IMG/VR virus record: IMGVR_UViG_3300029267_002855
Span: 1 to 38,026 of that record
Source: a virus
Direction: 5' to 3' (one strand)
DNA: 38,026 bases
Shown piece by piece: positions 1 through 36,648 of the stretch; positions within the stretch are counted from its first letter, which is position 1, and every line of letters starts with the position of its first letter. Under the pieces are notes generated by a model. It searched no databases. It was not told the origin of the DNA and saw only the letters and a list, made by a program, of their open reading frames with translations. Made by a program: the position numbers and the translations under genes.

Positions 1-144
1 CCTATTGCTCGTTACACATTCAAACGTAGATGAGGTATGCGATGATGTGAGGAATTGCGGTTGAACACTTGCTTCAACAAAATACCGAGCTGTAACAGGC
101 GCTGTGAAAGTATATGTGCCAGTATTAAAGTCACTATTTTGATC
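1..144. repeat. Window-terminal direct repeat, copy 1 (identical to 37883..38026); circular-assembly overlap or terminal redundancy
   Basis: Compared base by base: all 144 nt are identical to the last 144 nt of the window. A minus-strand frame crosses the junction without a stop. Confidence 0.95.
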
Positions 145-456
145 AAAAATCTCTTGGTTAAATTGAACTGTCCATGTACTCCCGTCACCCGTTACATTGT
201 TATAAGTCGTGCTCATTTCAACAAGTACTGCTGGCTGCAAGGGCATTGTTCGTTCACCATCCGATGTCATGATAAAAAAATCTGTAGTCCCTAAAGCTGA
301 CCCACTAGCAACTTTAAATTTATCCGAATCATCGTCGTCAACCCCCATGCGATATTTTCCAGTACCGTTTATACTGAATTGTGTAAAACTATCACCACTT
401 CCTGGATCTATAGTTATCGACCCACCCTTGTTATCTATACTATTTATTTTTGCCAT
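1..456 (-). CDS. C1q/TNF-like knob protein, paralog 3, N-terminal 152 codons (gene wraps the junction and continues at 37882..37679; 219 aa in total)
   Basis: ATG at 456..454, 8 nt after the stop of 465..1133. Hand translation MAKINSIDNKGGSITIDPGSG...MPLQPAVLVEM...EIFDQNSDFNTGTYTFTAPVTARYFVE...CVTSNR is in frame with TYLLSYVNPY... at the window end. It is collinear with the two neighbouring paralogs. Confidence 0.85.
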   Translation of the reverse strand, partial: MAKINSIDNKGGSITIDPGSGDSFTQFSINGTGKYRMGVDDDDSDKFKVASGSALGTTDFFIMTSDGERTMPLQPAVLVEMSTTYNNVTGDGSTWTVQFNQEIFDQNSDFNTGTYTFTAPVTARYFVEASVQPQFLTSSHTSSTFECVTSNR

Positions 457-464
457 CGCTACCC

Positions 465-1133
465 CTAAGCTACTAAAAACCCTTGTAAACACGTTGATAT
501 TGGAGATGAACCACCTATAATATCAACCACTTTTGATCCACCACTGGGTTGCTGCATAATCAACACACTTGTTGTTGCAGTATCAGACGCATCCATATCC
601 GCCAAACATGTAATCTTGAATACCTTTACCGTGCTTACAGAACAAACATACGGATTCATATGCTCACACATAAAAGTTCTATTGCTTGTATTTATATACG
701 CAACCACTACATCATGACTAGAGGTAAGCCCAGATGCTTCAATGGTTGCAGTTAGTAAATACCGGCCTGTTATCGGAGCGGTAAACGTGTCCGAAGCAAC
801 ACTGCTACTCTGATCAAATATGCTACTATCTACGTCGCATGTGTAATTTGTGCCGTCGCCCGTTACATTGCTATCAGTCGAGCTGTTATAATAGCTAAAA
901 GCTGGTTGTAAAGGCATTGTTATAGCACCATCGGTCGTCATTTTAAACGTGTCATTTGTGCCCAAACTTGAACCCTGGGAAAGCTTCAACATATCTGAAT
1001 CATCATCATCAATACCCAGTCGGAATTCCCCAGTTCCTCCAATATCGTATTGGACAAATGGATCTATCCCAGTCGATCCTTGATCCAATGTCAGCTCATC
1101 AGTCCAATTATTTATAGCATTTATTTTTGCCAT
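465..1133 (-). CDS. C1q/TNF-like knob protein, paralog 2 (putative distal receptor-binding protein)
   Basis: 222-aa ORF. Its N-terminus MAKINAINN..ELTLDQGS is shared with the neighbours. It carries a gC1q-type signature: LQPAFSYYNS, SSIFDQSS, FTAPITGRYLL. It is tightly packed with flanking genes. Confidence 0.8.
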   Translation of the reverse strand: MAKINAINNWTDELTLDQGSTGIDPFVQYDIGGTGEFRLGIDDDDSDMLKLSQGSSLGTNDTFKMTTDGAITMPLQPAFSYYNSSTDSNVTGDGTNYTCDVDSSIFDQSSSVASDTFTAPITGRYLLTATIEASGLTSSHDVVVAYINTSNRTFMCEHMNPYVCSVSTVKVFKITCLADMDASDTATTSVLIMQQPSGGSKVVDIIGGSSPISTCLQGFLVA

Positions 1134-1140
1134 ATTATTC

Positions 1141-1803
1141 CTATACTGCTAAATAGCCACAAAACCTCGTTACCATATCACCACCGCCTTCAACATCTAT
1201 CGTTTTGGTTCCCCCAGAAACTGTAAGCTGTACGTAGGCCGTGTCAGAGGCGTCCATGTCTGCAATTATCAACCCTTGATGCCCAAAGCCAGCAAGACTT
1301 CCGCTTATATCACACGTATCTGGATCACAATTATTTATAAGATAAGTTCTATTACTTGTGACTATACTGCATGAACTTCCAGTATGACCACTAATATCAT
1401 GTATCTTAATACTAAAAAACAGTACGTACCGGCCTGTGGTAGGGGCGGTGAAAACGCCCGTACTGGAATTATAGTCACTACCTTGATCAAATATTTCCGT
1501 GTTACATATTATCTGGTATGCCGTAGAGTCACCCGTTACATCGTTATCATCTGCTGAATTATACGCACTAAACGCCGGCTGTAAGCCAAACCTAGTCTCA
1601 CCTGTTGGCTCAGATGTCATAGCATTACTAGAGCCTAATGAACCACCAGTGCTAATATAAAATCTATCAACGCTACCATCAGGAGTTCCTAACACATATT
1701 TATTTGACGTGTTGATATCAAATTGTATCCTAGACTTCCCGCTACTTCCTTCGTCAATAGTCAGCTCTTGAGCCTTATTGTCTATGCTATTTACCTTAGC
1801 CAT
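1141..1803 (-). CDS. C1q/TNF-like knob protein, paralog 1 (putative distal receptor-binding protein)
   Basis: 220-aa ORF with MAKVNSIDNKAQELTIDEGS, LQPAFSAYNS, TEIFDQGSDYNSSTGVFTAPTTGRYVLFF, TSNRTY and ADMDASDTA. These are the same motifs, in the same order, as 465..1133. Confidence 0.8.
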   Translation of the reverse strand: MAKVNSIDNKAQELTIDEGSSGKSRIQFDINTSNKYVLGTPDGSVDRFYISTGGSLGSSNAMTSEPTGETRFGLQPAFSAYNSADDNDVTGDSTAYQIICNTEIFDQGSDYNSSTGVFTAPTTGRYVLFFSIKIHDISGHTGSSCSIVTSNRTYLINNCDPDTCDISGSLAGFGHQGLIIADMDASDTAYVQLTVSGGTKTIDVEGGGDMVTRFCGYLAV

Positions 1804-1811
1804 ACTTACTC

Positions 1812-4148
1812 CTACACAACTGTAAAGTTACCAACACTACTTGCCACTACCCAATCCGTATTAGCTGTAATACAAACCAATTTTATAGTCCCATACTGGA
1901 TATCAGCAGTAAGTGAGCCACCCGTTCCGGTTGTAGTTGAAGAGCCACCAAAGTGTACAGTCTCTCCAGCATTTTGAGCTATCTTAAATTTCCCTGCACC
2001 CTTACCAACAACTTCAACAACAGATCCTAAAGCTGCTGTGTCAGGTAAAGTTACCGTAACTAAACCAGCATTGTTTGCCACATACCCATTATCTACTGAA
2101 GCTGTCTGAGATGTTCCTGTTACTTCTGACCAAGTAATTCCACCACCGCTTGAAGCTGTAGATCCAAGTTCACCATTAGCATCAATAATAACAGTCTCTG
2201 TTGCGCCACCAGGAGTTACACCATGGATACCAGCTATGAAGCAACTATTTTGCTGCTTATTACCAGTGCCCTGCGTACCTATCCGTATAGTATTATTATC
2301 TCCTACTGTACCTGGATTATGAATTAATAAATTATCACTATCATTTGTTGTAAGAGCATTTCCACAACCAGATCCAATTGCTACATTATAACTTCCAGAT
2401 ACTAAAGCTGCATATGCTGACCCTCCAATACCAATATTATGACTACCTGTCGTTAAAGCTGCTGCACAATTAACACCAAAACACATATTGCTTCCCCCAG
2501 AAGTACACTTCCAAAGGGCCTGCGTTCCTAGTGCTGTATTGTAAGAACCATCTTGCAGATCTGACAATGAATTATAACCAATACTAACGTTGCTTTCGCC
2601 AGTCGTAAGAGCATCTAATGCATTAACACCAACTCCAACATTAAACCCATTCCCAGTTGTTGTGCCATTGCCAGCATTAAAACCAATAAATGCATTATTG
2701 GTACCATATGCATGAAAAAATCTTGTGCTATTTACTTCTATAACACCTTCAGACAATGCAGCATTAGTTGTCGGTAGATTTAAGTTTCCAGCAGTGATGG
2801 TCACATCTCCTGTTGTTGCAGTTAATCCCGTTCCTGCCGTAATTAAACCTTGAGATATAGGAGCCTTACCCCATTCATCTATAGTTTCAAGTGCTGCTTG
2901 AACATTAGTATCCGCTGCACTCAAAATCCAGTCAAAATTTGTTACATCTGTTAAGACTAATGAAGCAGTGTTAGTGCCTGAAGTTGTAGATCCTGAACCA
3001 ACTGTCTGTTTATCTATAATAACATCTACTATAGAGTTAGATGATTCGGAATATATTATATATCCAAGTCTTGCTAACTCTAGGTATGCTAGCTCACCTG
3101 ATGCCGATGCTGGATCTCCATTTGCAATTGCTGTTTGAGCAGAAGCTAAATTATTATATTCTGCTGTGTGCATCACTGAAAAATAAACAGGCGTTGAAGT
3201 ATTTAAATCGTCTTTAGATACATAAAGTTTATAGATACCAAATTTATTAGTATTTAAAGCTGTTGGTGTTCCTGCGTTATTATATTGTCCGGTAAATGTA
3301 TCACTTTGAGTATTCCTTGCCCATTTACCTGAGCCATTTGTATAGTACTGCTCCCATACAACTCCCACACCTGAGCTGTCCGGGATGTCCGTGTAAAGAC
3401 CATGATCAGAGAGCTCATCTGCTCCATTAATCTGAATCTTTTGTGTACCATTAAGAGTGATATTAGCGCCACCAGCATGATTTTCGATAACTATACCTGT
3501 TGTCTCATGTGCCCAATAAGAGGCTGCAACAGGAAAATCATATGGATGATTCTCTTTAACTGTTACCTGTATATTAGTACCTGAAGTAGAGTCACGCATA
3601 CACTCAAACAAGACTATATAATCCTGGAATGTCGCCAATGAAAATGTAGTTGTCTTGCCTATATTACCAGCACTATCAATATATATTAAATATGTATTAC
3701 CAGCTGTCATGCCTGTAACCGTCTGTGAACCTGCCCATGTGACAGGTACACCTTTAATGTATCCAGTGCCAGCCTCTAAAACAGTAAATTGCCCGAGTGT
3801 AGTATCATCATAATATGGTGAACCACCAGACCAACCCTCAAAACCTGTATCAGTTTTTAAGACATCATATGTATCTAACGTTGTACTACTTGCCGCTCCG
3901 GACGTTTGTAACGGGCCCGATCCCACAATGGAAAATGACCCACTAGCGGGTGTACATGTCCCTGAATCCGTAGTAATTGAAGTTGCTACAGCATCAAAAT
4001 TGATATTCCTATCATCTACCGTCCACGTACGAGTTGTCGCAGTTGTGATGCCAGATACATCATAAGTCAGAACCTTAGTGTTATCTGCATCATCCTTAAT
4101 ATCTAAACCGGTTGATGCATCATTAATACAATTCCTTACTGTCGCCAT
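1812..4148 (-). CDS. Long tail fibre (778 aa): shared N-terminal anchor, adhesin-head-like repeats, shared C-terminal knob
   Basis: The first 57 aa are identical to the 4379..5023 product. The middle has GxNxxAhG-type repeats (NTALGTQAL, NIGIGGSAYAAL, NVAIGSGCGNAL). CFIAGIHGVTPGG..IIDANGELG and the last ~105 aa are homologous to the C-terminus of 5033..6454. Confidence 0.8.
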   Translation of the reverse strand: MATVRNCINDASTGLDIKDDADNTKVLTYDVSGITTATTRTWTVDDRNINFDAVATSITTDSGTCTPASGSFSIVGSGPLQTSGAASSTTLDTYDVLKTDTGFEGWSGGSPYYDDTTLGQFTVLEAGTGYIKGVPVTWAGSQTVTGMTAGNTYLIYIDSAGNIGKTTTFSLATFQDYIVLFECMRDSTSGTNIQVTVKENHPYDFPVAASYWAHETTGIVIENHAGGANITLNGTQKIQINGADELSDHGLYTDIPDSSGVGVVWEQYYTNGSGKWARNTQSDTFTGQYNNAGTPTALNTNKFGIYKLYVSKDDLNTSTPVYFSVMHTAEYNNLASAQTAIANGDPASASGELAYLELARLGYIIYSESSNSIVDVIIDKQTVGSGSTTSGTNTASLVLTDVTNFDWILSAADTNVQAALETIDEWGKAPISQGLITAGTGLTATTGDVTITAGNLNLPTTNAALSEGVIEVNSTRFFHAYGTNNAFIGFNAGNGTTTGNGFNVGVGVNALDALTTGESNVSIGYNSLSDLQDGSYNTALGTQALWKCTSGGSNMCFGVNCAAALTTGSHNIGIGGSAYAALVSGSYNVAIGSGCGNALTTNDSDNLLIHNPGTVGDNNTIRIGTQGTGNKQQNSCFIAGIHGVTPGGATETVIIDANGELGSTASSGGGITWSEVTGTSQTASVDNGYVANNAGLVTVTLPDTAALGSVVEVVGKGAGKFKIAQNAGETVHFGGSSTTTGTGGSLTADIQYGTIKLVCITANTDWVVASSVGNFTVV

Positions 4149-4369
4149 TATTCATCCTCAACCTTAGAAGTTTCATACTCCCGCTCTTCCTTTTTAATCT
4201 TATCTTGTTCCTCAGGAGTAAAATCTATTTCAATACCTGTATGATTTTCAATTATTTGCTCAGCTATTTGCTCAACAACATTATCTTTTTTTTTAATTAT
4301 TATAGTTGTTATTGCACCTACAATAAGAGATACCCCTACAACTATTGCACCAACTATATTTAATCCCAT
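4148..4369 (-). CDS. Small single-pass membrane protein with an acidic tail (holin-like or fibre-associated; function unknown)
   Basis: 73 aa. One N-terminal TM helix (IVGAIVVGVSLIVGAITTIII) is followed by a K/E/D-rich tail. Its stop overlaps the next start (TAATG). Confidence 0.6.
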   Translation of the reverse strand: MGLNIVGAIVVGVSLIVGAITTIIIKKKDNVVEQIAEQIIENHTGIEIDFTPEEQDKIKKEEREYETSKVEDE

Positions 4370-4378
4370 AATTACTCC

Positions 4379-5023
4379 TTAAACAACGGTTAAATCAGTT
4401 CTACCACTTAATTGTGCCCATGTAGTATTCGCAACAACACACACTAACTCTAACGGCATAGACTTTCCAGATGTGGAACTATATGAAACTGAGCCTCCTG
4501 TACCAGTTGTACTTGTACCATTAGCTATAGTAATAATCTTTTGGCCAGCATTTTGAGTAACTGTAACTCCACTATGAGCAGTATAAGCAACAAGTCGTAA
4601 AATATCACCTACACTTGAAGTTGATGGTAATAATGGGCTTGCAGACCCTCCGCCACTAGCCGCTATATATCCAGTATTTACAACACCTGTAAATGGATAC
4701 GTTTGATCATCTATCCAATTGATCACACCACCAGAGCCACCAGTACTTGTCACAGTTATAGTGTCTGAACTAGCTGAGGTGGTCACTCCACCTGACCCTT
4801 CAATGGAAAACGTCCCACTGGCGGGTGTACATGTCCCTGAGTCAGTACCCACGGAAGTTGCTACAGCATCAAAATTAATATTCCTATCATCCACAGTCCA
4901 GGTTCGAGTTGTTGCTGTTGTAATACCTGAAACATCATAAGTAAGTACTTTTGTGTTGTCTGCATCATCTTTGATGTCTAGACCTGTTGATGCATCATTT
5001 ATACAGTTCCTTACAGTAGCCAT
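4379..5023 (-). CDS. Short tail fibre (214 aa): same N-terminal anchor as the 778-aa fibre, diverged copy of the shared C-terminal knob
   Basis: Residues 1-57 are identical in protein to 1812..4148. The C-terminus (..GY..LP.TSSVGD...TQNAGQKI...TGTGGS...LELVCVVANTTW...DLTVV) is collinear with the knobs of the 778- and 473-aa fibres. Confidence 0.8.
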   Translation of the reverse strand: MATVRNCINDASTGLDIKDDADNTKVLTYDVSGITTATTRTWTVDDRNINFDAVATSVGTDSGTCTPASGTFSIEGSGGVTTSASSDTITVTSTGGSGGVINWIDDQTYPFTGVVNTGYIAASGGGSASPLLPSTSSVGDILRLVAYTAHSGVTVTQNAGQKIITIANGTSTTGTGGSVSYSSTSGKSMPLELVCVVANTTWAQLSGRTDLTVV

Positions 5024-5032
5024 ATATATCTC

Positions 5033-6454
5033 CTATGCTACGGTTATATTTCCTTTAGATGTCAACAAAGTCCATGTTGTATCTGCTACAGTACACAAAA
5101 CCTCTACTGCGTCATAATCATCTGTAGACTCTAGATATCCAGTAGCTCCAACCGTTGTTGCCGTAGCTTCATCCCAAATAATCTGCTCACCAGCATTTTG
5201 AGCAAGCTTCCAGCCACCACCACCTTTACCACAAATACGTACAATTGATCCTAAAGCTGCTGTATCAGGCAGTGTTACAGTTACTTGTGCTGCATTATTT
5301 GTTATATAGCCACTATCTACAGCGGCCGCTTGAGTTGTTCCTGTAACTTCTGACCAAGCAAGTCCCGTGCTACCTGTATATGAAATTGTAATAGTACCAG
5401 CACCATTGGCTATTCCTATGTCGGCTCCTGCGGTCAGTGTTGCAAGTACTTGATTTGCCCCGGTTGATCCAATTGGGATTTGTCCATTGGTTGCAGCACC
5501 TAATGTACCTAATTCACCATTAGCATCAATTATAGCTGTTTGTGCCACAGCTCCTGGAGTTACACCATGAATACCAGCTATAAAGCAACTATCTTGCTCT
5601 CCTGCACCTGATCCTTGTGTTCCGATATGTATTGTGTTGTCTTCACCTAACACCCCATCATTGGAAATGCAAATATTTGATGACTCTGCCCCAGTATAAT
5701 TAATACCAGAACCGGACCCTATGGCAACATTCAGATCTCCAGTTGTAAGCGTTGACAATACTGGCGTTCCCATACCAACATTTAATGAGCCTGTTGTAAT
5801 ATTTTCACCTGAATAACTACCAATCATAGAGTTAAAATTTCCTGTAGTGGTGTCTGTCAAACTATTAAAGCCTAAACAAGTATTATCTCTTCCAGTAGTA
5901 AGCACGCTTCCACTATTGATACCAAAAAATGTATTTCGAGTACCTAAATTATGCATAAACAATAAGCCGCCAATACGCCACACACCTTCAGTAAATGCCA
6001 CATTTGTAACAGGCATACTAAAGTTTCCACCAGTTGACACACTGCCTGGAAAGTCTGGAGCAATTAAACTAAGATCCTGATCGCACATTGTCAAAGTACG
6101 AGTATTTCCTGTTGTAATCTGATCACACTGGATAGCAAACAACTTACTATTATCACCATCATCATATACTCTAAATACATCATCTTGAAATGTTGGACCT
6201 ATACCAGCCCCGACGGCACTAATAGTAATCGAACCAGGAGCATCAAGTATATTGATATTTGCGCCAGCAGTTAGGTTTGCTAATACTGGATCGTTTCCAG
6301 CACTTCCGATAGGCAAAACTCCGTCACCAGCAACAGCTAATGAAACTAACGAGCCATCAGCCGCACCAACTAATAAAGCATGCTCCGTGGCACCTGTTAA
6401 ATTAGTAATATCTAGGGTTCCAGTAAAATCAGATCCAAATATAATCTGTGACAT
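5033..6454 (-). CDS. Tail fibre (473 aa) with adhesin-head-like repeats and the shared C-terminal knob
   Basis: It has NTFFGINSGSVLTTGRDNTCLGFNSL.. repeats. CFIAGIHGVTPGA..IIDANGELG and WSEVTGTTQAAAVDSGYITNNAAQVTVTLPDTAALGS..AQNAGE..GNITVA match 1812..4148. The G.hPIGS.G..PVLA.LTAG..I module occurs twice. Confidence 0.8.
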   Translation of the reverse strand: MSQIIFGSDFTGTLDITNLTGATEHALLVGAADGSLVSLAVAGDGVLPIGSAGNDPVLANLTAGANINILDAPGSITISAVGAGIGPTFQDDVFRVYDDGDNSKLFAIQCDQITTGNTRTLTMCDQDLSLIAPDFPGSVSTGGNFSMPVTNVAFTEGVWRIGGLLFMHNLGTRNTFFGINSGSVLTTGRDNTCLGFNSLTDTTTGNFNSMIGSYSGENITTGSLNVGMGTPVLSTLTTGDLNVAIGSGSGINYTGAESSNICISNDGVLGEDNTIHIGTQGSGAGEQDSCFIAGIHGVTPGAVAQTAIIDANGELGTLGAATNGQIPIGSTGANQVLATLTAGADIGIANGAGTITISYTGSTGLAWSEVTGTTQAAAVDSGYITNNAAQVTVTLPDTAALGSIVRICGKGGGGWKLAQNAGEQIIWDEATATTVGATGYLESTDDYDAVEVLCTVADTTWTLLTSKGNITVA

Positions 6455-6462
6455 AATACCCC

Positions 6463-6837
6463 CTATATAACTCTATATGAAGACGATATTGTAACCAATC
6501 CAGCTGTAGGATCTGTTCCCGCAACAAGTGACTTAACATAAAACTGAGTACCCTTAGGAAATACTATACCATTTGCAGCAATATCAGTCACAGATCCACC
6601 ATTACTTTTAACTGGAAAATGATCCTCTACACCGTCTAAACTTACCCATAAATTAGCATCGCTAAAATTATATACTGAATCAATCCGACATGGATGATCT
6701 AATGGTGTACCAACAGCAACATAAACACCCGCAACAGGAGTTACCGCAGTATCTAAAGTTCTTGCTGGCTCCATCCACCCACGTTCGGCTGATTGAAATG
6801 TATATGCATTCATATTATTCCTTAAAGTGGGCGCCAT
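6463..6837 (-). CDS. Hypothetical beta-rich virion-module protein
   Basis: 124-aa ORF packed between two fibre genes. No motif recognised. Confidence 0.5.
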   Translation of the reverse strand: MAPTLRNNMNAYTFQSAERGWMEPARTLDTAVTPVAGVYVAVGTPLDHPCRIDSVYNFSDANLWVSLDGVEDHFPVKSNGGSVTDIAANGIVFPKGTQFYVKSLVAGTDPTAGLVTISSSYRVI

Positions 6838-6858
6838 AAAGACGCCCTTTAATTAAAT

Positions 6859-9321
6859 TTAAGCAGCAATTATCCAGAACGTAAGTATCAAATCACTTGC
6901 AAGAGCAGCTGCACCATTATTTTTATATGTAACGGTAAACGAACCTGCCAATGGACGCACTTTTTGTATTGTACACTGAGCATCTTCTGCTCCAACACTA
7001 GCAAGAGTACACAATATTGCTGAACCAACTGTACATACTGCATTTGTAACTGTTAAGACTTGTGTACCAGCTGCGGCGGTAACCAACCCGGTGAAAGTAC
7101 CAACACCGACGTTTGCATTGACTGTAACAGCGGCTGCTGCCTGTGTATCTGTAGCCGGAACCATGTCGACTATACCATCAGCATCAAGAGTAAGACCTCC
7201 TGTACCAGCTTGAATAAGTGTATCTGTCGCACCAGTTTTATTGGAAATAATTACGTTTTTGGCAGTAGCATCAGCCCCTATAGAGATAGCTCCAGTTCCC
7301 GTTTGCATGGTAAATGCACCGTTAACACTATCTACAGTAAAGCCACCCGTTCCATAATCAAAATCAAAACCACCAGCAGCATTCGAAGCATTCAATCTTA
7401 TAGAGTTAGCAGCTGCAAGACCAGAAGTCACAACAACTCCACCTACATCAGATGTTACAGCAATAGAAGCCGCACCTGTTCCTTGATCTGCGTGCAATCT
7501 AAGAGTCTCATTGACTCCCCCATTTGTGTGAAGGTAAATTGCGTCCGCTGCATCTTCAGTAGCTGTAATTGTTGTAGAGCCTAATGTAGAGTTAAGTGCA
7601 ATATCTCCGGTTCCAGAGTTCAAGGTACATGAGGATGCACCATTAACAGCACCTATCACGATATCTTTAGCAGTTGCATCAGCCCCTATATTAATATCAC
7701 CTGTACCAGAGACTAAACCAATCTCACTATTAGTAGCCGTTAATATGATGTTTCCGGTTCCAGCGTTGAAGGCCAATGCATTCGCACCTACAATATTACC
7801 TATAGTTGTCGTACGTTCACCTTGGGTGCCAATATTAATAGCAAAATCGTTATCATCATTTCCGACATTTAATGTTCCAGCTGTCGAATTTAAGGAAACA
7901 TTTCCAGTAGCATCAATATCCACTGTTCCTGTACTTGTAATACTCGTATTTCCGGTTCCAGACTGCAAGATTGTCGATGCCGCTCCTGAGGTCGAACCTA
8001 CGGTTACGGCGTGTACGGCGGCATCAGCGCCTATATTCACATCACCTGTTCCAGAGATCAACGATATGTCAGAGTCTGTAGCCGTCATTACAATGTTTCC
8101 GGATCCAGCGTTGAAAGCCAATGCATTTGCACCTACGATATTACCGATTGTTGTCGTACGCTCACCTTGAGTGCCGATATTAATAGCAAAATCATTGTCA
8201 TCATTTCCGACATTTAATGTTCCGCCAGTTGAGTTAAGAGACACGTTTCCTGCTGCATCAGCATCTATTGTTCCGGTGCTTGTAATCGATGTATTCCCGG
8301 TTCCTGATTGTAGTGTTGCTGAAGAGGTTGTATTTGTGCTGCCCAATATTGTGTCATGAGCTGTAGCAGATGTACCAAACTCAGCGTTTCCGGTTCCTAC
8401 GTTACATGTAATCGATGTCGTTCCTGTAACGTTACCTATCACGATATTTTTTTGTGCAGCATCAGCCCCCAAGTTGATTGCTCCAGTGCCCGTTTCAAGG
8501 TTAAATGGACCATTAGCACCAGTTACAGCAAAGCCTCCTGTACCAAAATCGCAATCAATACCACCAGCAGCATTTGAAGCATTTAATATCAATGCATTAT
8601 TTGCAGCTCTGCCAGAATTCATATTAACTGAACCAACATCTGAGGTTAATGTTAAAGAGTTATTACCTGTCCCTTGGTCAGATCTGATGCGGATGGTCTC
8701 ATTGACCCCCCCATTTGCCCTTAGGTAAATGCAGTCCCCTGCATCTTGATCTGATGTAATCGTACAAGTTCCTGATGTCATCGTAAAATCTACACCAGCA
8801 GTAACAGCTCCTCCAGCATCAAGATCTCCAACAAGTGTAACATTATCATCTAGGTTGAACGTTACGGCATTTGCCGCCCCTGTACTTCCAATGTTTGTGC
8901 CCCCAATCATTTGGGTCACCCCTGCCAGAGGTGCAGCATTCCCAGCGTCCGTTTGGTACTGAGCCGCTTGTGCACCAACTACAGATAACGTAATTGTTCC
9001 TGCGCCTTCAGCTATACCAATAGACCCATCTGTACCTAAGTTTGCCCATACAGGCGTCAAACCAGTTCGAGCTATGTAGAGCTGTCCGTCGGTGCCATCA
9101 GGCGTAGGATCTGCAACAACAGACCATGTAGCTTGTGGAGGACTACCAGATATCAATGTCAAAATAAAATAATTACCAGTTAACCTATTGAGCCACGGTC
9201 TAGCAAGACTAGTAATATCATCGCCAGTTGGGTCTCTATCATAAATTAAAGCACCTTTTTCATTTTCAATTAATGGCTGTGAAAAGCCATACGAAATTTC
9301 AGGATATTCTTTAATGGCCAT
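6859..9321 (-). CDS. Repeat-rich beta-helix-like fibre/spike (820 aa)
   Basis: G/T/A/N-rich. It has nested internal repeats A(193-300)-B(327-441)-B'(442-556)-A'(591-698). The N-terminal ~60 aa are non-repetitive (a possible tail-attachment domain). It is the first gene after the ejection-protein block. Confidence 0.75.
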   Translation of the reverse strand: MAIKEYPEISYGFSQPLIENEKGALIYDRDPTGDDITSLARPWLNRLTGNYFILTLISGSPPQATWSVVADPTPDGTDGQLYIARTGLTPVWANLGTDGSIGIAEGAGTITLSVVGAQAAQYQTDAGNAAPLAGVTQMIGGTNIGSTGAANAVTFNLDDNVTLVGDLDAGGAVTAGVDFTMTSGTCTITSDQDAGDCIYLRANGGVNETIRIRSDQGTGNNSLTLTSDVGSVNMNSGRAANNALILNASNAAGGIDCDFGTGGFAVTGANGPFNLETGTGAINLGADAAQKNIVIGNVTGTTSITCNVGTGNAEFGTSATAHDTILGSTNTTSSATLQSGTGNTSITSTGTIDADAAGNVSLNSTGGTLNVGNDDNDFAINIGTQGERTTTIGNIVGANALAFNAGSGNIVMTATDSDISLISGTGDVNIGADAAVHAVTVGSTSGAASTILQSGTGNTSITSTGTVDIDATGNVSLNSTAGTLNVGNDDNDFAINIGTQGERTTTIGNIVGANALAFNAGTGNIILTATNSEIGLVSGTGDINIGADATAKDIVIGAVNGASSCTLNSGTGDIALNSTLGSTTITATEDAADAIYLHTNGGVNETLRLHADQGTGAASIAVTSDVGGVVVTSGLAAANSIRLNASNAAGGFDFDYGTGGFTVDSVNGAFTMQTGTGAISIGADATAKNVIISNKTGATDTLIQAGTGGLTLDADGIVDMVPATDTQAAAAVTVNANVGVGTFTGLVTAAAGTQVLTVTNAVCTVGSAILCTLASVGAEDAQCTIQKVRPLAGSFTVTYKNNGAAALASDLILTFWIIAA
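7654..8343 (-). repeat. In-frame tandem duplication, 2 x 345 nt (115 aa), inside the 820-aa fibre gene
   Basis: tttccggttccagcgttgaaggcc at 7751 recurs as tttccggatccagcgttgaaagcc at 8096, an offset of 345. The protein copies GNTSITSTGT..NVGNDDNDFAINIGTQGERTTTIGNIVGANALAFNAG are near-identical. Confidence 0.9.
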
Positions 9322-9560: not shown

Positions 9561-12500
9561 CTAACGTCTATTAACTCTACTACTGACTTTTGTAATCAAG
9601 CCATTAATAGAAGCATCCTTGTAACCGTTATCAATTAATACCTTAATAACATTCGATAATAATTTACTATCTTTATTCCTTAAAGCCCTAGCAACATATT
9701 TTTCCGCCTTATATAAGCTCATACCTCGTGATACTGGAACTGATCCAAGACCTGATCCAACATAAGGACCAAAACCTGTAGTAGTTAATGAAGCAACTGA
9801 AAATGGCAATACACCATGCATTAAAGCTTTAACACGAGATACAACACGCTCAGGGGTATATGGTTGGGTTGCATCCCAAGGTTTAAATTTACCTTCATCA
9901 TATTTACCCCTAACTGGGAACTGTGTATCTCCTGCCGGCGTAGCTCCAATAAGTTGTTGATAAGCTAACTGTAATACTGGATTACCTTTTCCAAATAATG
10001 TTTGCACAGGCTTTGTTCCATAACCTAAAACTTCAAGAGCCTGTTTTCCAAGATGCGCATACATCTTCCTACCTTTAGAGTCTCTTCCAGGATTGAATAT
10101 CGAAGATCCTACTTTAACATTTACATCAGGTAATGAAAACATATATGCCTTGCTAGGATCACCATCCCAAAAGTTTTTAGCCGCCTTTTCACGAGACCAT
10201 CTAATACCAGTTACTGAATTATTTTGCTTATCTGTCTGCTCTAAGCCGCCTAACGCATATTTTAATCCAGCCTGTATCAATGACGTTTTAATCATATAGT
10301 TTGCCCAATATCGTCGACCTAACTTACCTGTAACTCCTGACCCAAACCCACTCCCAGCTTGTTTTAATGCTGATATAGTCCAGTCAGGATATGCTATAAA
10401 TCTACGAAGCCATTTCATTGTCTTTGGATTATTGAAAAACTTACTTGTTTCCCATTGTTGACCACCATAAATGTTATTAACAAGAGTAGCTATATCTCTA
10501 CCAATTGCCCTACGCTGCTGCTCTGTAGCTGGATTACCTTTTTTAATTAAATTAGAGAGCTCTTTATTTAATAATTCATTATAAGTTACAGCTTTAAGTC
10601 GTGGGTGATATACCTCAAATAAATGATTCATACCCTTTTTAAGCTTACCAGTTATCGCTTTAGTTATCCTGCCTCCTTTAGATGCTGCAAAGTCTAATGC
10701 TTTATCCATCAAGTTAGAACCTTTACGATAATCAATTGGTTTTTCAAACTTAACACCATCACGTACAGCTTCAGTCATAAATTGTTTGCTATTTAATAGT
10801 TGATCACCTTGCTTTGCAATCCCTTTAAAGTTTAATGCTTTCCTATAACCTAATGCCCCTACTGCTGATTCCGTTAAAGCAACTGCATGGAATGGAGATA
10901 ACTGAACTCGTGCAGTACGCAATATATTAGAAGCATTATCAAAGTTCCGCCAAAATGCACCTTCACGCTTATAACCCTCTTTACTAAATACACCTTGGAA
11001 TGCATCTGCTATTTTAGGATCAACTAATACAGCACCTTGAGCAGTTTTCCAAGTTCCATCTGCTGCTTTATATCGTTTTAATATTGGTTCCTCAAACGGT
11101 ACAAAACCCATATCCTTAGCTTTACTATAAAGTTCTTTATTATTAGTTCTAACGATTAACGGATTCTCACCAGGTGTTTTTTCAATTGCATTAACCATCT
11201 TAGATTTTGCAAGTGCTCTATTTGTTATCTCATCATACACAGCAACATTTTCAACAATACCTTTATACTTAGGTTTCAATCCCGCCTTGATTGCCTCTTG
11301 ATGTGTTAAAAATTGTTTTTGCTCTGAAAATGGAGTTAACTTAGGGAACCCAGCAGTCTTCACCGCTTTTTTAATATCACCCTCATATAAGCCTGGCAAA
11401 TAAGTATCAACAAGCACGTCTCGTGGATTAATATTTTTCAAGCGAGGATCATTATTGATTTGTTGTAATCGTTTTTTAAAATACGTATCTACATCGCTTA
11501 CGAGTTTTTTTACTTGAGGTGACGTACGCTTTTCAAGTGCCTGATATGTATCACCTGTGATATTTGGATTACCTGTTTTTTGTCTTAAGTATGAAGCCTC
11601 TTCAAGTTGTGTTGGTGTGAATTTAGGAACAAGTTTACCCTTATCACGCTTATAAATCTTGTCCCTAAACTCTAATTGCGTCTTAAATATTTGCGCATCA
11701 CGTTCGCCCACATGCTCTTTAACCAAATCAAATGCCTGCTTGTTCTGAACGCTTTGCTTAATCTCTTGAGCATAACCTTGAATCCTCTGTATTGGTTTAC
11801 GTATTGGGGCTGGTAATTTTTCAATAAATCTAGATGGAGCTCTCTTGACAGGTTCAGGTAGATATTTTTTTATTGGTGCTCCAAATTTGTGTGCCATCTC
11901 CATACCAATTAAAGCTATTGCATTATCACGTAACTGCTCTTTACTTGGAAGTTGTCCATCTATTATGGATTGTGCCGTATTTAAACCGATATACTCTAAA
12001 CCTTTATAGGTAGCTTTTTGACCTGCACGTGTATTAAGAACCTTATTCCATACAGGAACTCGTTTCAATAAAGGTACAAATCTACCCATATTTGCAGTCA
12101 CTAGACCCACTGCACCAGCCTTACCAGTTTCGCCAAGTACATGACTAGCTCGATCAATGAATTCGCCAAATGAACCATCACCGCCCTTTTTAACGTAATC
12201 TCTATATTCATTAAATGATGACTTAATTAAAACAGGAGCCGCCATACCCATGAATGCTGCCCCTAATGTTGCGCCTAAAGCTGTTCCAGCACCAGGGATT
12301 ATGGAACCAATAGCTCCTCCAACCAAACCGCCTATCGCAGCTCCTCCACTAAAAGCAGGAGCATCGGAAGCAAGTTCACCCCCAAACTCAGCAAGATATT
12401 CTAAGAAGTTATCTGCTTGTTCTGAGTCTTCTGGAGATCCCAATATTTGTCCTGTAACACCTCGACCTATACCCCGTGAAGCACCCCTTGCAACTCGCTT

Positions 12501-12812
12501 AATTATAGATGCATCTTTCCTATATCGCTTATTTGTTTGCAATGGACCATATAACTCTTCAGTTGTTGGAATAAACATTGCACCTTCATCAAATGAGTCC
12601 TGAGGACCTGTATCAATATTATAATCCTGTGTAGCCGTATCCTGTTGAAACTGAGATAACTCATCTGGTGTAAATGCAAATACATCATCAATAGGAGGTG
12701 CCTGCTGCTGAACCATTGGAAGATTAGCAGATGGTTGTTGTACAGGTTCAGCATTTAACTCTTCAGGTGTAAAAACCAATGGATTATTATTTAACTCTGA
12801 ACCATTTGCCAT
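9561..12812 (-). CDS. Large internal virion / DNA-ejection protein (1083 aa)
   Basis: Largest ORF and the last of four consecutive internal-protein-like genes, as in P22 gp7/20/16 or T7 gp14-16. It has a glycine-zipper membrane segment GGAAIGGLVGGAIGSIIPGAGTALGATLGAAFMG. No catalytic motif recognised. Confidence 0.6.
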   Translation of the reverse strand: MANGSELNNNPLVFTPEELNAEPVQQPSANLPMVQQQAPPIDDVFAFTPDELSQFQQDTATQDYNIDTGPQDSFDEGAMFIPTTEELYGPLQTNKRYRKDASIIKRVARGASRGIGRGVTGQILGSPEDSEQADNFLEYLAEFGGELASDAPAFSGGAAIGGLVGGAIGSIIPGAGTALGATLGAAFMGMAAPVLIKSSFNEYRDYVKKGGDGSFGEFIDRASHVLGETGKAGAVGLVTANMGRFVPLLKRVPVWNKVLNTRAGQKATYKGLEYIGLNTAQSIIDGQLPSKEQLRDNAIALIGMEMAHKFGAPIKKYLPEPVKRAPSRFIEKLPAPIRKPIQRIQGYAQEIKQSVQNKQAFDLVKEHVGERDAQIFKTQLEFRDKIYKRDKGKLVPKFTPTQLEEASYLRQKTGNPNITGDTYQALEKRTSPQVKKLVSDVDTYFKKRLQQINNDPRLKNINPRDVLVDTYLPGLYEGDIKKAVKTAGFPKLTPFSEQKQFLTHQEAIKAGLKPKYKGIVENVAVYDEITNRALAKSKMVNAIEKTPGENPLIVRTNNKELYSKAKDMGFVPFEEPILKRYKAADGTWKTAQGAVLVDPKIADAFQGVFSKEGYKREGAFWRNFDNASNILRTARVQLSPFHAVALTESAVGALGYRKALNFKGIAKQGDQLLNSKQFMTEAVRDGVKFEKPIDYRKGSNLMDKALDFAASKGGRITKAITGKLKKGMNHLFEVYHPRLKAVTYNELLNKELSNLIKKGNPATEQQRRAIGRDIATLVNNIYGGQQWETSKFFNNPKTMKWLRRFIAYPDWTISALKQAGSGFGSGVTGKLGRRYWANYMIKTSLIQAGLKYALGGLEQTDKQNNSVTGIRWSREKAAKNFWDGDPSKAYMFSLPDVNVKVGSSIFNPGRDSKGRKMYAHLGKQALEVLGYGTKPVQTLFGKGNPVLQLAYQQLIGATPAGDTQFPVRGKYDEGKFKPWDATQPYTPERVVSRVKALMHGVLPFSVASLTTTGFGPYVGSGLGSVPVSRGMSLYKAEKYVARALRNKDSKLLSNVIKVLIDNGYKDASINGLITKVSSRVNRR

Positions 12813-21007: not shown

Positions 21008-21949
21008 TTAAGTAAATGGACCTGCATCGGTCGTACCAGCTCTCCAATGTATAACATCATCTTCAGCTCCAGCAGGACCAGCAGCAGCAGTAGCGCCAGC
21101 CTTAAGCTCAAAACCTCTGAATGAATTGTTAGTAATTGGACCACTAATAGGCACAACTTGAGCATACGTTGGCAAGGTTACACCAGTCAATGGGAACGCA
21201 AATGCCGTATATGTAGTTGTGTTAAGATCAACTGTAATGGTATTTACTGTATCAGATGTTGTCTTTGCAAGCACCTCAACAGTTTTATCATTAGCCTCAA
21301 GCATACCAAATGTTTCTGGCACCTTAAGTTTAACCTTATCACCAACCTCAAAGCCATGAGCCACACTCATTGTAATAACAGCCTGAGCAGCCTGTGTAAT
21401 GTTAGTAATAAACCTTACACCTGGATACCAAACTTCAGGATATTTTACCTTATAAAAGGAACCTGTTGTTCCTGCTACAATTGTAGCCATAAACGGTAAA
21501 CTAAATGTTGTTCCGTTTAAATTCGTTATAGTAAAATCCATGCCATTCAATTGAGTAGCACCTGTTACACTAACAAATCTAACAATATCACCTGTAAGAT
21601 ATGTTGTAGCATCTGTAACAGTTACTTGTGGTGGCGTATCCGCACTCACTGCCGTCACAGTAGCATCCTTAGCACTTAAAGGATTATCATTAGTATTTAT
21701 TGCCGTAATACCTGTAGCAGCTAACAATGCTTGTGGAACCACAGCATCTATAGTTGCCTCACGCACATCACCAACACCATATTGATAGTTACCAGTCATA
21801 TTGGTATCCCAATATGATGTACACAATGTAGCATTAGTTGCCGTACGTATCTTTGTTAGGTTACGAATTTCAATCCAATCTGCACCAATAGGTACTTCCA
21901 AATATTTATCCTTACCGTCTGCGGTAAAGTATCCTTGTATTGTAGTCAT
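21008..21949 (-). CDS. Abundant-type structural protein after the MCP (decoration or head-fibre candidate), 313 aa
   Basis: T/V/A-rich beta protein. It has two similar segments (GDIVRFVSVTGATQLNGMDFTIT and GDKVKLKVPETFGMLEANDKTVEV). It lies immediately downstream of the capsid gene. Confidence 0.5.
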   Translation of the reverse strand: MTTIQGYFTADGKDKYLEVPIGADWIEIRNLTKIRTATNATLCTSYWDTNMTGNYQYGVGDVREATIDAVVPQALLAATGITAINTNDNPLSAKDATVTAVSADTPPQVTVTDATTYLTGDIVRFVSVTGATQLNGMDFTITNLNGTTFSLPFMATIVAGTTGSFYKVKYPEVWYPGVRFITNITQAAQAVITMSVAHGFEVGDKVKLKVPETFGMLEANDKTVEVLAKTTSDTVNTITVDLNTTTYTAFAFPLTGVTLPTYAQVVPISGPITNNSFRGFELKAGATAAAGPAGAEDDVIHWRAGTTDAGPFT

Positions 21950-35838: not shown

Positions 35839-36648
35839 ATGGAAATTAATAAAGCTGAACTTATTGAACTTATAAATGCTGTTATGGATGCTAGAGATAA
35901 TGTTAAAGACATTAAAAAAGATCCAATGGGTAAACTTGAAAGCGACTCTCTCGATAAACTCGCCCCTGCGTTATGCAAGATGCAGGGGGAGTTTACAACA
36001 GTAATACCAACTAAGACTAATCCTAGATTCAAAAGTAAATATGCTGACTATGATGATATTTTAAAGATGGCAAGACCACACCTCGCAGCTAACGGCTTCT
36101 CTATTCACTCTAAAGAGGAAGAGCATGACGGAGTAAGATACATCAGGACTAAACTACTTCATAGCAGCCAACAATATATATCATCTTTTGTAAGAGTTAT
36201 AGAGGATAAAAATAATAAAACTGACATACAGGCATACGGTAGCGGTGTATCATATCATAAACGCTACTCATTACAATCAATACTCGGAGTCTCTATAAAT
36301 GATGACGTCATAGAAAACGACGGCAACCCACCTGAGAAGACAAATGCAACCAATAAGCAAAATCATAAAAAAACTACTCATAAAACTTCTAACCAATCAC
36401 AAGGCCAACAAAAACAACCACAGAACAAAGATTATAAGCCAAGCAAACCAAAACCTCCAGCAGGAGTCCCGCTTTTAACTGAGGGCGAGATTAAGTTTAT
36501 AAACGATGAACTTAATGGACATCCTGATATACGATATACACTTATGACGGAGGTACTGGAAGATATAACCCTTGAGCAATGCCCCAAGGAGGCCTTTGAC
36601 CACATAGTGAGTTATATCAATAAACAAAAGAGTAAAAAAAAGACTTGA
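35839..36648 (+). CDS. erf: Erf-family single-strand annealing protein
   Basis: LAPALCKMQGEFTTVIPTKTNPRFKSKYADYDDILKMARPHLAANGFSI and QAYGSGVSYHKRYSLQSILGV match the ERF pattern. The tail is low-complexity and basic/Q-rich. Confidence 0.85.
   Translation: MEINKAELIELINAVMDARDNVKDIKKDPMGKLESDSLDKLAPALCKMQGEFTTVIPTKTNPRFKSKYADYDDILKMARPHLAANGFSIHSKEEEHDGVRYIRTKLLHSSQQYISSFVRVIEDKNNKTDIQAYGSGVSYHKRYSLQSILGVSINDDVIENDGNPPEKTNATNKQNHKKTTHKTSNQSQGQQKQPQNKDYKPSKPKPPAGVPLLTEGEIKFINDELNGHPDIRYTLMTEVLEDITLEQCPKEAFDHIVSYINKQKSKKKT

What the first reader, a model, noticed from the sequence alone, without database searches (positions are those of the whole stretch)
3978..5023. A 57-codon N-terminal module shared by two fibres: 26 synonymous differences, zero amino-acid differences
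I aligned by hand codons 1-57 of the 778-aa fibre (4148..3978) against the 214-aa fibre (5023..4853). 26 codons differ, each by a single synonymous change (for example GCG/GCT, TTA/CTA, CGT/CGA, TCA/TCC). No amino acid differs. Identity breaks down abruptly at codon 58.

The longest identical nucleotide run is about 23 nt. So this is an old duplication held under extreme purifying selection at the protein level. That is consistent with both fibres docking to the same site on the tail or on another fibre.

Alternatively or additionally, synonymous divergence may be favoured because it prevents homologous recombination from deleting the genes between the two copies.
Basis: seen in the sequence. 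Interest (0 to 1): 0.7.

Follow-up and report, generated by a model that had tools for sequence, protein, structure and literature searches.

The report
Two phage fibres share codon-scrambled anchor
Two neighbouring tail-fibre genes of an uncultured short-tailed phage begin with the same 57 amino acids written in thoroughly different codons, most likely because both fibres must fit one attachment site on the virus particle; the case shows how phages keep several host-recognition fibres side by side.

Summary
Codons 1-57 of the 778-aa gene (4148..3978) and the 214-aa gene (5023..4853) differ at 26 codons. Every difference is a single synonymous change, and no amino acid differs. Synonymous sites are close to saturation: pS 0.64, against 30.1±3.5 differing codons expected for unrelated codon choice.

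The regime changes at codon 58 (0/57 versus 4/21 amino-acid differences, P=0.004). Weaker homology continues to codon 78 and reappears in the C-terminal domains.

The module is a swappable N-terminal cassette of a multi-fibre locus in a complete circular genome of about 37.9 kb with a P22-like portal. It is not uniformly conserved. Related phages carry different versions (57-88% identical), even a close relative. However, each version is frozen in protein while its codons are scrambled. This holds within genomes (L074: 26 synonymous, 2 amino-acid differences) and between genomes.

Best reading: discrete attachment-specificity versions are held by strong purifying selection, and both fibres here use the same version.

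Selection for synonymous divergence, to stop the phage's ERF recombinase from deleting the intervening genes, is plausible. Neither the spacing test nor the codon-usage test supports it, and it is not needed.

This is a real and unusual evolutionary pattern, not a new kind of system.

The parts
3978..4148 (-). Cassette copy A: codons 1-57 of the 778-aa fibre gene (version 'W': MATVRNCINDASTGLDIKDDADNTKVLTYDVSGITTATTRTWTVDDRNINFDAVATS)
   Evidence: identical in protein to copy B, with 26 synonymous single-base differences.
4853..5023 (-). Cassette copy B: codons 1-57 of the 214-aa fibre gene, with the same 57 amino acids
   Evidence: Codon usage is normal for the genome in both copies.
3915..3977 (-). 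Linker, codons 58-78 of the 778-aa gene (ITTDSGTCTPASGSFSIVGSG)
   Evidence: 4 amino-acid and 6 synonymous codon differences from the B linker. pS 0.49, pN 0.12. This linker type goes with the bodies of A-like fibres in L002 and L001.
4790..4852 (-). Linker, codons 58-78 of the 214-aa gene (VGTDSGTCTPASGTFSIEGSG)
   Evidence: the 'VGT...GTFSI' linker is the kind attached to type II cassettes in L082 and L084. Codon 57/58 is therefore a cassette junction.
1812..4148 (-). 778-aa fibre gene A: cassette, then a central domain shared with many metagenomic fibres, then a repeat region, then a C-terminal beta domain
   Evidence: PHROG tail spike / virion structural protein; 325 homologues, most with other N-termini. 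One search shows a strain-level recombination breakpoint near codon 208.
4379..5023 (-). 214-aa fibre gene B: cassette, linker and a C-terminal beta-sandwich domain
   Evidence: AF2 gives pLDDT 75-92 for residues ~100-214. Foldseek top hits are CBA120 TSP4-N (E=5.6e-5), with T4 gp10 (2fl8) a weak hit (E=0.77). The body is orthologous to the L076 213-aa protein (pS 0.335).
4148..4369 (-). 73-aa gene between the two fibre genes. It has a hydrophobic N-terminal stretch followed by a charged tail. It would be lost, together with the B body, if the two cassettes recombined.
   Evidence: The gene is conserved at this position in L001, L002, L076, L079 and L090. The membrane-spanning character is inferred from the sequence only.
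5033..6454 (-). 473-aa upstream fibre. Residues 96-138 (about 6041..6169) are a degenerate internal copy of the cassette domain. Its C-terminal domain (5039..5365) is 52% identical to that of fibre A.
   Evidence: Relative to the close relative L076 it looks like a fusion of the 451-aa and 206-aa fibre genes.
1815..2144 (-). C-terminal domain of fibre A, homologous to the C-terminal domains of the 473-aa protein (5039..5365) and of fibre B (4382..4729)
   Evidence: tblastn 52% and 28% identity.
465..1803 (-). Two C1q-like fibre genes (1141..1803 and 465..1133). A third spans the contig ends. All start with a related N-terminal motif (MAK[IV]N.I[DN]N...).
   Evidence: (Pfam C1q).
35839..36648 (+). 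ERF-family single-strand annealing protein, the phage's own recombination function
   Evidence: PF04404, E=2.3e-19. It is 87% identical to the ERF gene of L076.

Best explanation
The 57-codon segment is an exchangeable N-terminal attachment cassette of the receptor-binding fibres of a multi-fibre, short-tailed phage.

The cassette exists in the phage gene pool as discrete versions. Each version is held almost unchanged in protein by strong purifying selection, presumably because it must fit a matching docking surface on the virion or on another fibre. Its synonymous sites drift to saturation.

In this genome both the 214-aa and the 778-aa fibre carry the same version ('W') because both must be mounted on the same kind of site. 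The two copies are not a recent duplication or gene conversion. They are either an old one or were joined to their present bodies by cassette exchange at the codon 57/58 junction.

Nucleotide-identical copies probably do not last in a phage with an ERF recombinase. The codon-scrambled state is therefore also the state expected to survive.

Shown: the counts, the saturation, the cassette junction, the mosaicism, the frozen versions within and between genomes, and the ERF gene.

Inferred: the docking function, the existence of a matching partner surface, and the survivorship effect.
For: (1) Counts: 26 synonymous and 0 non-synonymous differences, pS 0.64. The number of differing codons matches unrelated codon choice (30.1±3.5 expected, P(<=26)=0.15). 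There are no multi-step Ser/Leu/Arg switches (3.3 expected, P=0.015), as natural drift under protein constraint predicts.

(2) Replicates:
- L074, a distant phage, has adjacent 207- and 212-aa fibres with 26 synonymous and 2 amino-acid differences in codons 1-57, pS 0.67. They share 9-10 residues that differ from the window.
- L090 has a pair with 3 amino-acid and 7 synonymous differences in 33 codons, sharing a unique 'LFIGVS'.

(3) Among 105 pairs of 15 distinct modules, the two closest in protein are these two within-genome pairs. Their synonymous difference (0.46-0.47 of codons) equals that of pairs with 7-14 amino-acid differences. Fisher test of the window pair against the L001 pair gives P=4e-4, and against the L002 pair P=5e-5.

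(4) The same version in different genomes is also frozen:
- W, first 25 residues, window versus L079: pS 0.85 and 0.57, dN 0.
- Version T, L079 versus L090, 27 codons: pS 0.68, amino acids identical.

(5) Cassette behaviour: the window's B body is close to that of the L076 213-aa protein (pS 0.335), but the L076 protein carries a type II cassette. The junctions lie at codons 57/58 and about 74.

(6) Attachment role:
- The cassette heads fibres with unrelated bodies (C1q-like, long and short) in relatives.
- The AF2 model of B matches CBA120 TSP4-N (E=5.6e-5) and, weakly, T4 gp10 (E=0.77).
- In CBA120 such N-terminal regions assemble the branched tailspike complex (PMC8825819).
Against: - No docking partner was identified and no complex could be modelled.
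- The N-terminal cassette itself is poorly predicted (pLDDT 42-66).
- The close relative L076 has a nearly identical virion core: the 124-aa protein is 100% identical and the 1083-aa protein 98%. Yet it uses a different type I version and a type II cassette. Any partner must therefore be one of the variable proteins, or tolerant of different cassettes.
- Some same-type pairs are not frozen. L001 has 8 amino-acid differences at pS 0.48, and L002 has 11.
- All clocks are blurred by mosaicism and synonymous saturation, so the age of the pair cannot be measured.
- Only about 8 distinct genomes were available.
Confidence: 0.55

Rival explanations
1. Recent copying followed by selected codon scrambling. 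One fibre's cassette was recently copied onto the other by intragenomic gene conversion. This created a 171-nt perfect direct repeat flanking the B body and the 73-aa gene. Synonymous changes were then driven to fixation because each one lowers ERF-mediated deletion. Non-synonymous changes were blocked by function.
For: - The phage encodes an ERF annealing protein.
- Gene conversion between fibre N-termini does occur in this group. The L001 C1q-like paralogues share 39 codons with only 2 synonymous differences.
- Paralogous fibre genes have fused or been deleted in this lineage on a short time scale: the window's 473-aa gene corresponds to the L076 451-aa plus 206-aa genes.
- Cassette dS (1.4) far exceeds core-gene dS to the nearest relative (0.08-0.17), and exceeds pS of the B body (0.335; P=0.0015).
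- Both the window and L074 stop at a longest identical run of 23 nt.
- Experimental precedent: a fifth tailspike gene carrying a duplicated assembly domain recombined with tsp4, or caused deletions (PMC11414711). Engineers synonymise repeats for the same reason (PMC4403262).
Against: - The differences are not more evenly spaced than random. The longest run is 23 against a null mean of 17-19, and P(null max run <= observed) is 0.88 and 0.92.
- Neither copy is pushed into rare codons (33rd and 42nd percentile).
- Divergence does not exceed the neutral saturation level.
- Same-version copies in different genomes show the same pattern of frozen protein and scrambled codons. Purifying selection alone is therefore sufficient.
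Confidence: 0.2
2. Parallel tracking of a changing partner. The two cassettes have been separate for a very long time. They reached the same protein sequence by parallel substitutions, as both followed changes in a shared docking partner.
For: - Within-genome pairs share residues specific to their lineage while synonymous sites are saturated.
- In L074, Ser57 is encoded by AGT in one copy and TCA in the other. That switch requires passing through another amino acid or a double change.
Against: - About 10 identical parallel changes per genome would be needed.
- Apart from the single boundary codon, all shared residues use codons of the same family, differing only at one position. This is what common descent predicts.
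- Gene conversion and cassette exchange are directly documented and explain the shared residues more simply.
Confidence: 0.1
3. Nothing special. This is ordinary purifying selection on a conserved fibre N-terminus plus chance, or an artefact of metagenome assembly.
For: - Fibre N-termini are usually the most conserved part of receptor-binding proteins (general knowledge).
- The window is a metagenomic contig.
Against: - At comparable synonymous divergence, other pairs of this module have 7-14 amino-acid differences. Fisher tests give P of 5e-5 to 5e-4.
- The two closest pairs out of 105 are both within-genome pairs.
- The arrangement is syntenic in several independent assemblies. An independent ENA contig is 100% identical across both copies.
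Confidence: 0.05

Closest known systems
Branched multi-tailspike complexes with conserved N-terminal assembly regions (Ackermannviridae TSP1-4, e.g. CBA120 TSP4-N; T4 gp10-like XD domains)
   Same: - Several receptor-binding proteins are encoded side by side, with conserved N-terminal parts for assembly and exchangeable distal parts (PMC8825819, PMC8432352 abstract).
- The AF2 model of fibre B gives CBA120 TSP4-N as its top PDB hits (E=5.6e-5), with T4 gp10 a weak hit (E=0.77).
- Duplicating an assembly domain at the DNA level provokes recombination or deletion (PMC11414711).
   Different: - There is no detectable sequence similarity: no Pfam hit and no PDB sequence hit.
- This is a ~38-kb phage with a P22-like portal, not a large myovirus.
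- Here the shared part is a 57-residue cassette that also occurs as an internal repeat in giant fibres.
- Foldseek TM-scores are low (0.3-0.4).
- Codon-level scrambling of an identical protein segment was not found described for those phages in the papers I searched.
Dual receptor-binding proteins of KP32-type / SP6-K1-5-type podoviruses, with a conserved N-terminal anchor or adaptor (recalled from the literature, not read here)
   Same: A short-tailed phage mounts two or more alternative fibres or spikes through a conserved N-terminal peptide or domain. The distal domains are swapped horizontally.
   Different: Membership was not tested. No T7 gp17-like N-terminal domain was detected by Pfam or PHROGs. 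Five or more fibre genes here share related N-termini.
Paralogues kept identical in protein by purifying selection rather than by gene conversion (the histone H4 / ubiquitin pattern in Nei and colleagues' birth-and-death model, recalled; see also yeast histone paralogues as a co-adapted complex, PMC4700949 abstract)
   Same: Paralogues within one genome are identical or nearly identical in protein while their synonymous sites are saturated. By that argument the identity is due to selection, not to recent homogenisation.
   Different: Histones are conserved across all species. This cassette differs by 12-43% between related phages and comes in discrete versions, so the constraint is specific to each version.
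Engineered synonymous recoding of repeats to stop deletion (PMC4403262)
   Same: The same protein sequence is encoded by deliberately different codons so that repeats no longer recombine.
   Different: That is a design practice. Here the state is natural, and no signature of optimisation was found (spacing and codon usage).

Membership tests
Multi-fibre (branched) receptor-binding complex with shared N-terminal attachment module | Two or more receptor-binding protein genes clustered in the tail-gene region | tested here: met
   The 473-, 214- and 778-aa fibre genes and three C1q-like fibre genes lie in a row. The arrangement is syntenic in L001, L002, L074, L076 and L079.
Multi-fibre (branched) receptor-binding complex with shared N-terminal attachment module | A conserved N-terminal part combined with variable, horizontally exchanged distal parts | tested here: met
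   The same cassette heads bodies of 203-1085 aa, including C1q-like ones. The B body is shared with L076 under a different cassette. Homologues of the fibre A body carry other N-termini.
Multi-fibre (branched) receptor-binding complex with shared N-terminal attachment module | T4 gp10-like (XD) docking domains | tested here: inconclusive
   Foldseek hits to CBA120 TSP4-N (E=5.6e-5, prob 1.0) and a Klebsiella phage baseplate protein (9f4a, E=1.8e-3); the T4 gp10 hit (2fl8) is weak (E=0.77, prob 0.66). TM-scores are only 0.34-0.39, and the model is a monomer with mean pLDDT 71. No sequence-level match was found.
Multi-fibre (branched) receptor-binding complex with shared N-terminal attachment module | Physical attachment of the N-terminal module to a tail or fibre partner | not testable with these tools
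   No multimer prediction or experiment was available.
Concerted evolution by gene conversion | Paralogues within a genome are more alike than orthologues at synonymous sites as well as in protein | tested here: not met
   The window pair differs at 26/57 codons, against 20-29 of 42-47 for between-genome pairs. All are near the saturation value of 30.1/57. The feature is met for the L001 C1q-like paralogues (2 synonymous differences in 39 codons).
Purifying-selection (birth-and-death) maintenance of identical paralogues | Protein identity together with high synonymous divergence between paralogues | tested here: met
   pS 0.64, dN 0. L074 pair: pS 0.67 with 2 amino-acid differences.
Purifying-selection (birth-and-death) maintenance of identical paralogues | The same protein sequence conserved in orthologues of other genomes | tested here: inconclusive
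   Met only per version: W residues 1-25 in L079, and T residues 1-27 in L079/L090. Not met for the family as a whole (57-88% identity).
Diversity-generating retroelement (template/variable repeat pair) | Mismatches confined to adenines of one copy and changing amino acids | tested here: not met
   The differences involve all base types (12 transitions, 14 transversions). Neither copy is consistently A, and all are synonymous. A reverse transcriptase was not searched for systematically.
Any curated protein domain family for the cassette | Significant match to Pfam, PHROGs or a PDB sequence | tested here: not met
   No Pfam hit for either protein. No PHROG hit for the 214-aa protein, and none covering residues 1-78 of the 778-aa protein. 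No PDB sequence hit for the cassette profile. Yet 988 representative proteins match the 214-aa protein.

The most novel reading that the evidence does not exclude
Fibre attachment cassettes in this phage group may behave like specificity (lock-and-key) alleles. They would be discrete versions, each frozen in protein over times long enough to randomise codons, and reassorted among fibre bodies at a fixed junction. In addition, codon scrambling between same-version copies in one genome may be actively selected, because it protects multi-fibre loci from deletion by the phage's own ERF recombinase. If so, synonymous sites of duplicated docking modules would be under positive selection for being different. 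That effect is rarely, if ever, demonstrated in nature.
Probability: 0.2. Interest if true: 0.75.

Novelty: new variant of a known kind. Interest (0 to 1): 0.55.

Why it matters
Phages that carry several receptor-binding fibres must mount all of them on one particle. They must also keep the repeated DNA that encodes the common attachment part from recombining.

This locus is a clean natural example. Two fibres have identical attachment cassettes whose DNA has diverged to the point (15% different, longest identical run 23 nt) where homologous recombination should be negligible.

The comparative data suggest that attachment cassettes come in discrete, internally frozen versions that are swapped at a fixed junction at codon 57/58. 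That gives three things:
- a concrete design rule for engineering extra fibres into phages: recode the anchor and graft at the junction;
- a testable case for whether synonymous sites can be selected for dissimilarity;
- a handle for finding the docking partner by co-variation, once more genomes are available.

The cassette is also an undescribed domain family that is abundant in metagenomic fibres.

Tried and rejected
- **GenBank phages:** no nucleotide match and no protein match to the cassette. The portal protein is only ~22% identical to cultured phages, so no annotated relative helps.
- **First protein-database search** with the 78-aa cassette found nothing, because the query was too short for the word index. 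Longer queries worked.
- **Reference bacterial and archaeal genomes:** no prophage copy.
- **PDB sequence searches:** nothing.
- **Using the close relative L076 as a clock** for the age of the cassette pair failed. The fibre locus is mosaic, with junctions at about codons 57 and 74 and a fused gene, so flanking dS does not bound the age of the cassette.
- **Strain-level variants** (L073 and the duplicates of L001, L002, L074 and L076) are identical across the cassettes, so they give no polymorphism data.
- **A recently homogenised linker?** The 20-nt identical run in codons 62-68 might mark one, but the difference is not significant (2/11 versus 26/57 codons, P=0.11). The segment is not conserved at the DNA level in other genomes.
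- **DGR-like mutagenesis:** rejected on the mismatch pattern.
- **Assembly artefact:** rejected on synteny and on an independent identical contig.
- **Synthetic recoding:** rejected because all changes are single-step and natural relatives exist.
- **Searching for the docking partner by co-variation:** not attempted, because there are too few genomes.


Full report
**1. The observation**

The 778-aa ORF (1812..4148) and the 214-aa ORF (4379..5023) both lie on the minus strand. A 73-aa ORF (4148..4369) separates them.

In codons 1-57, 26 codons differ, each by one base. All differences are synonymous and no amino acid differs. The longest identical run is 23 nt, and there are 12 transitions and 14 transversions.

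Nei-Gojobori values are S=40.7, N=130.3, pS=0.639 (dS about 1.4) and dN=0.

I also drew codons for these 57 residues independently from the codon usage of the window's genes. On that basis 30.1±3.5 codons would differ, and 26 is not significantly fewer (P=0.15). The synonymous sites are therefore essentially randomised with respect to each other. The only trace of shared descent is the absence of multi-step Ser/Leu/Arg codon switches (3.3 expected, P=0.015). That absence is also what natural drift under protein constraint predicts.

The statement that identity 'breaks down abruptly' needs qualifying. There is a real change of regime at codon 58 (0/57 versus 4/21 amino-acid differences, P=0.004). 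But codons 58-78 are still 81% identical. The C-terminal ~110 residues of the 214-, 473- and 778-aa proteins are also homologous (28-52% identity).

**2. What the genome is**

The window's first and last 144 nt are identical, so it is a complete circular assembly of 37,882 bp.

It encodes:
- a P22-like portal and a large terminase;
- an ERF-family annealing protein;
- a run of fibre genes: 820 aa, 124 aa, 473 aa, 214 aa (B), 73 aa, 778 aa (A) and three C1q-like proteins, the third spanning the contig junction.

There is no nucleotide or cassette-level match in GenBank phages. The portal is ~22% identical to those of cultured phages. This is an uncultured lineage.

**3. What the module is**

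Relatives were recovered from IMG/VR, JGI and ENA/Logan assemblies. They show the same locus plan, and the same ~57-residue segment sits at the N-terminus of fibres with quite different bodies. These range from 203 to 1085 aa and include C1q-like ones.

A degenerate copy lies inside the upstream 473-aa-type fibre. The first ~50 residues also occur as an internal repeat, up to 20 times, in giant metagenomic proteins. No Pfam, PHROG or PDB sequence family covers the segment.

An AlphaFold2 model of fibre B is confident only for the C-terminal beta domain. Its best PDB matches are the N-terminal tailspike-assembly region of CBA120 TSP4; T4 gp10 is only a weak match (E=0.77). In that system such regions build a branched multi-spike complex (PMC8825819). 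Viral-library hits are fibres and tailspikes.

Two main cassette types exist:
- type I, 'M..V[RF]N.IND...GL.I.DD';
- type II, 'M.TKNS.NNKTGPLTITDS'.

Type I has several versions.

**4. The cassette is exchanged as a unit**

L076 is a close relative. Its 124-aa protein is 100% identical (dS 0.075), its 1083-aa protein is 98% identical (dS 0.17), and its fibre genes have dS 0.37-0.45.

Its orthologue of fibre B has a nearly identical body (codons 76-214, pS 0.335) but a type II cassette. Its other short fibre carries a different type I version.

B's linker (codons 58-74, 'VGT...GTFSI') is the kind attached to type II cassettes in L082 and L084. A's linker matches the linkers of long-fibre orthologues that carry other cassettes. 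Codon 57/58 is therefore a recombination junction, which explains the sharp boundary.

The locus recombines in other ways too:
- The window's 473-aa gene corresponds to a fusion of L076's 451-aa and 206-aa genes.
- A strain-level contig (L073) is 100% identical from 8023 down to 3526. It then becomes ~10% divergent inside gene A.
- Two C1q-like paralogues of L001 share 39 N-terminal codons with only 2 synonymous differences, which indicates a recent conversion.

**5. How unusual is zero amino-acid change?**

I compared 105 pairs of 15 distinct cassettes. Pairs that differ at 35-63% of their synonymous-capable codons normally have 7-14 amino-acid differences.

The two closest pairs of all are within-genome pairs:
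- the window pair, with 0 differences;
- the L074 pair, with 2 differences, 26 synonymous codon differences and pS 0.67.

Fisher tests of the window pair (26 synonymous, 0 non-synonymous) give P=4e-4 against the L001 pair (19, 11). They give P=5e-5 against the L002 pair.

L074 is a distant phage (its neighbouring proteins are 45-60% identical). Its two copies share 9-10 residues that differ from the window's version.

L090 adds an intermediate case: 3 amino-acid and 7 synonymous differences in 33 codons, with a unique shared 'LFIGVS'.

Other genomes do not match their two cassettes: L001 has 8 differences, L002 has 11, and L076 and L082 have different types. So the family is variable, but certain genomes keep two copies of one version.

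**6. The key discriminating result**

Copies of the same version in different genomes are also frozen in protein and scrambled in codons:
- The first 25 residues of the fibre after the 73-aa gene in L079 are identical to version W. pS is 0.85 to copy A and 0.57 to copy B.
- Version T (MATIRNCINDTSTELFIKDDTDNTKVL) is identical over 27 residues between L079 and L090, with pS 0.68.
- Between W and T there are 5 differences in 25 residues.

There can be no deletion pressure between copies in different genomes. Strong version-specific purifying selection must therefore exist, and it suffices to explain the window pair.

**7. Tests of the anti-recombination idea**

- The synonymous differences are not more evenly spaced than random placement. 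This holds in both the window and L074: longest run 23 versus null means of 18.9 and 17.4.
- Neither copy uses unusual codons.
- Divergence does not exceed neutral saturation.

These results give no positive support. They do not exclude the idea, because several points still favour it:
- The phage has an ERF recombinase.
- Recombination between paralogous fibres is documented in the lineage.
- Cassette dS exceeds that of every flanking comparison with the nearest relative.
- In an engineered Ackermannviridae phage, a duplicated assembly domain led to recombination with tsp4 or to deletions (PMC11414711).

I therefore keep a weaker form as part of the best explanation: nucleotide-identical cassettes are unlikely to persist, so long-lived pairs are codon-diverged. 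Active selection for scrambling stays as a rival at about 0.2.

**8. Verdict**

The most likely mechanism is version-specific purifying selection on an exchangeable N-terminal attachment cassette that two fibres of this phage share.

The docking function and the matching partner are inferred, not shown. The pattern is an unusual variant of the known theme of a conserved anchor with a variable tip in phage receptor-binding proteins. Its conceptual analogue is histone-type maintenance of identical paralogues by selection rather than by conversion.

Noticed in passing
window 1-144 and 37883-38026: The two ends are 100% identical over 144 nt. The contig is therefore a circularly closed assembly of a 37,882-bp genome.
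   Followed up: partly
window complement of about 37683..37882 joined to 1..456: A third C1q-like fibre gene (about 219 aa, MAKINSIDNKGG...) spans the contig junction. The genome therefore has three tandem C1q-like fibres. All have N-termini related to each other and, loosely, to the cassette motif (M-A-x-x-N-x-I-N).
   Followed up: partly
window 4148..4369 (minus strand): A 73-aa protein with a hydrophobic N-terminal stretch and an acidic/lysine-rich tail sits between the two fibre genes. It is conserved at that position in L001, L002, L076, L079 and L090. Its role (assembly factor, holin-like or other) is unknown.
   Followed up: no
L073 versus window 2935..8023: An independent ENA contig is 100% identical to the window from 8023 down to 3526. 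It is then ~10% divergent from codon ~208 of the 778-aa gene onward, mostly at third positions. This is a strain-level recombination breakpoint inside fibre A.
   Followed up: yes
window 5033..6454 versus L076 5637..7621: The window's 473-aa fibre equals the N-terminal two-thirds of L076's 451-aa fibre (93% nt identity) joined to a C-terminal domain collinear with L076's separate 206-aa fibre (77%). This implies a fusion or deletion, or conversely an insertion, between paralogous fibres.
   Followed up: partly
L001 11440..12099 and 12107..12772: Two C1q-like paralogues share 39 N-terminal codons with only 2 synonymous differences, then diverge sharply. This is a recent gene-conversion tract in the same kind of locus.
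   Followed up: yes
L076 8496..9539: A 347-aa fibre starts with the first ~10 residues of a type II cassette (ATKNSINNKT). These are fused directly to the 'AGNLNLPTTNAALTEGVIEVNS' repeat region that lies ~450 residues into the window's 778-aa fibre. It is a natural deletion variant, and it suggests that the extreme N-terminal peptide may be enough for mounting.
   Followed up: no
proteins P0129, P0131, P0133: The first ~50 residues of the cassette recur 15-20 times as an internal repeat in giant (1600-2600 aa) metagenomic proteins. The cassette therefore belongs to a widespread, uncurated fibre-repeat domain family.
   Followed up: partly
window 7256..8679 (820-aa gene): There are internal direct repeats within the Ala/Gly/Thr-rich 820-aa protein: 290 nt at 80% identity (7676-7965 versus 8021-8310) and 233 nt at 71%. 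Homologues of 921-963 aa in relatives differ in repeat number.
   Followed up: no
window 21008..21949 (minus strand): A 313-aa protein in the head-gene region gives a Pfam hit above threshold to the ubiquitin-E1 FCCH domain (PF16190, E=1.4e-9). This is an odd match for a phage structural region.
   Followed up: no
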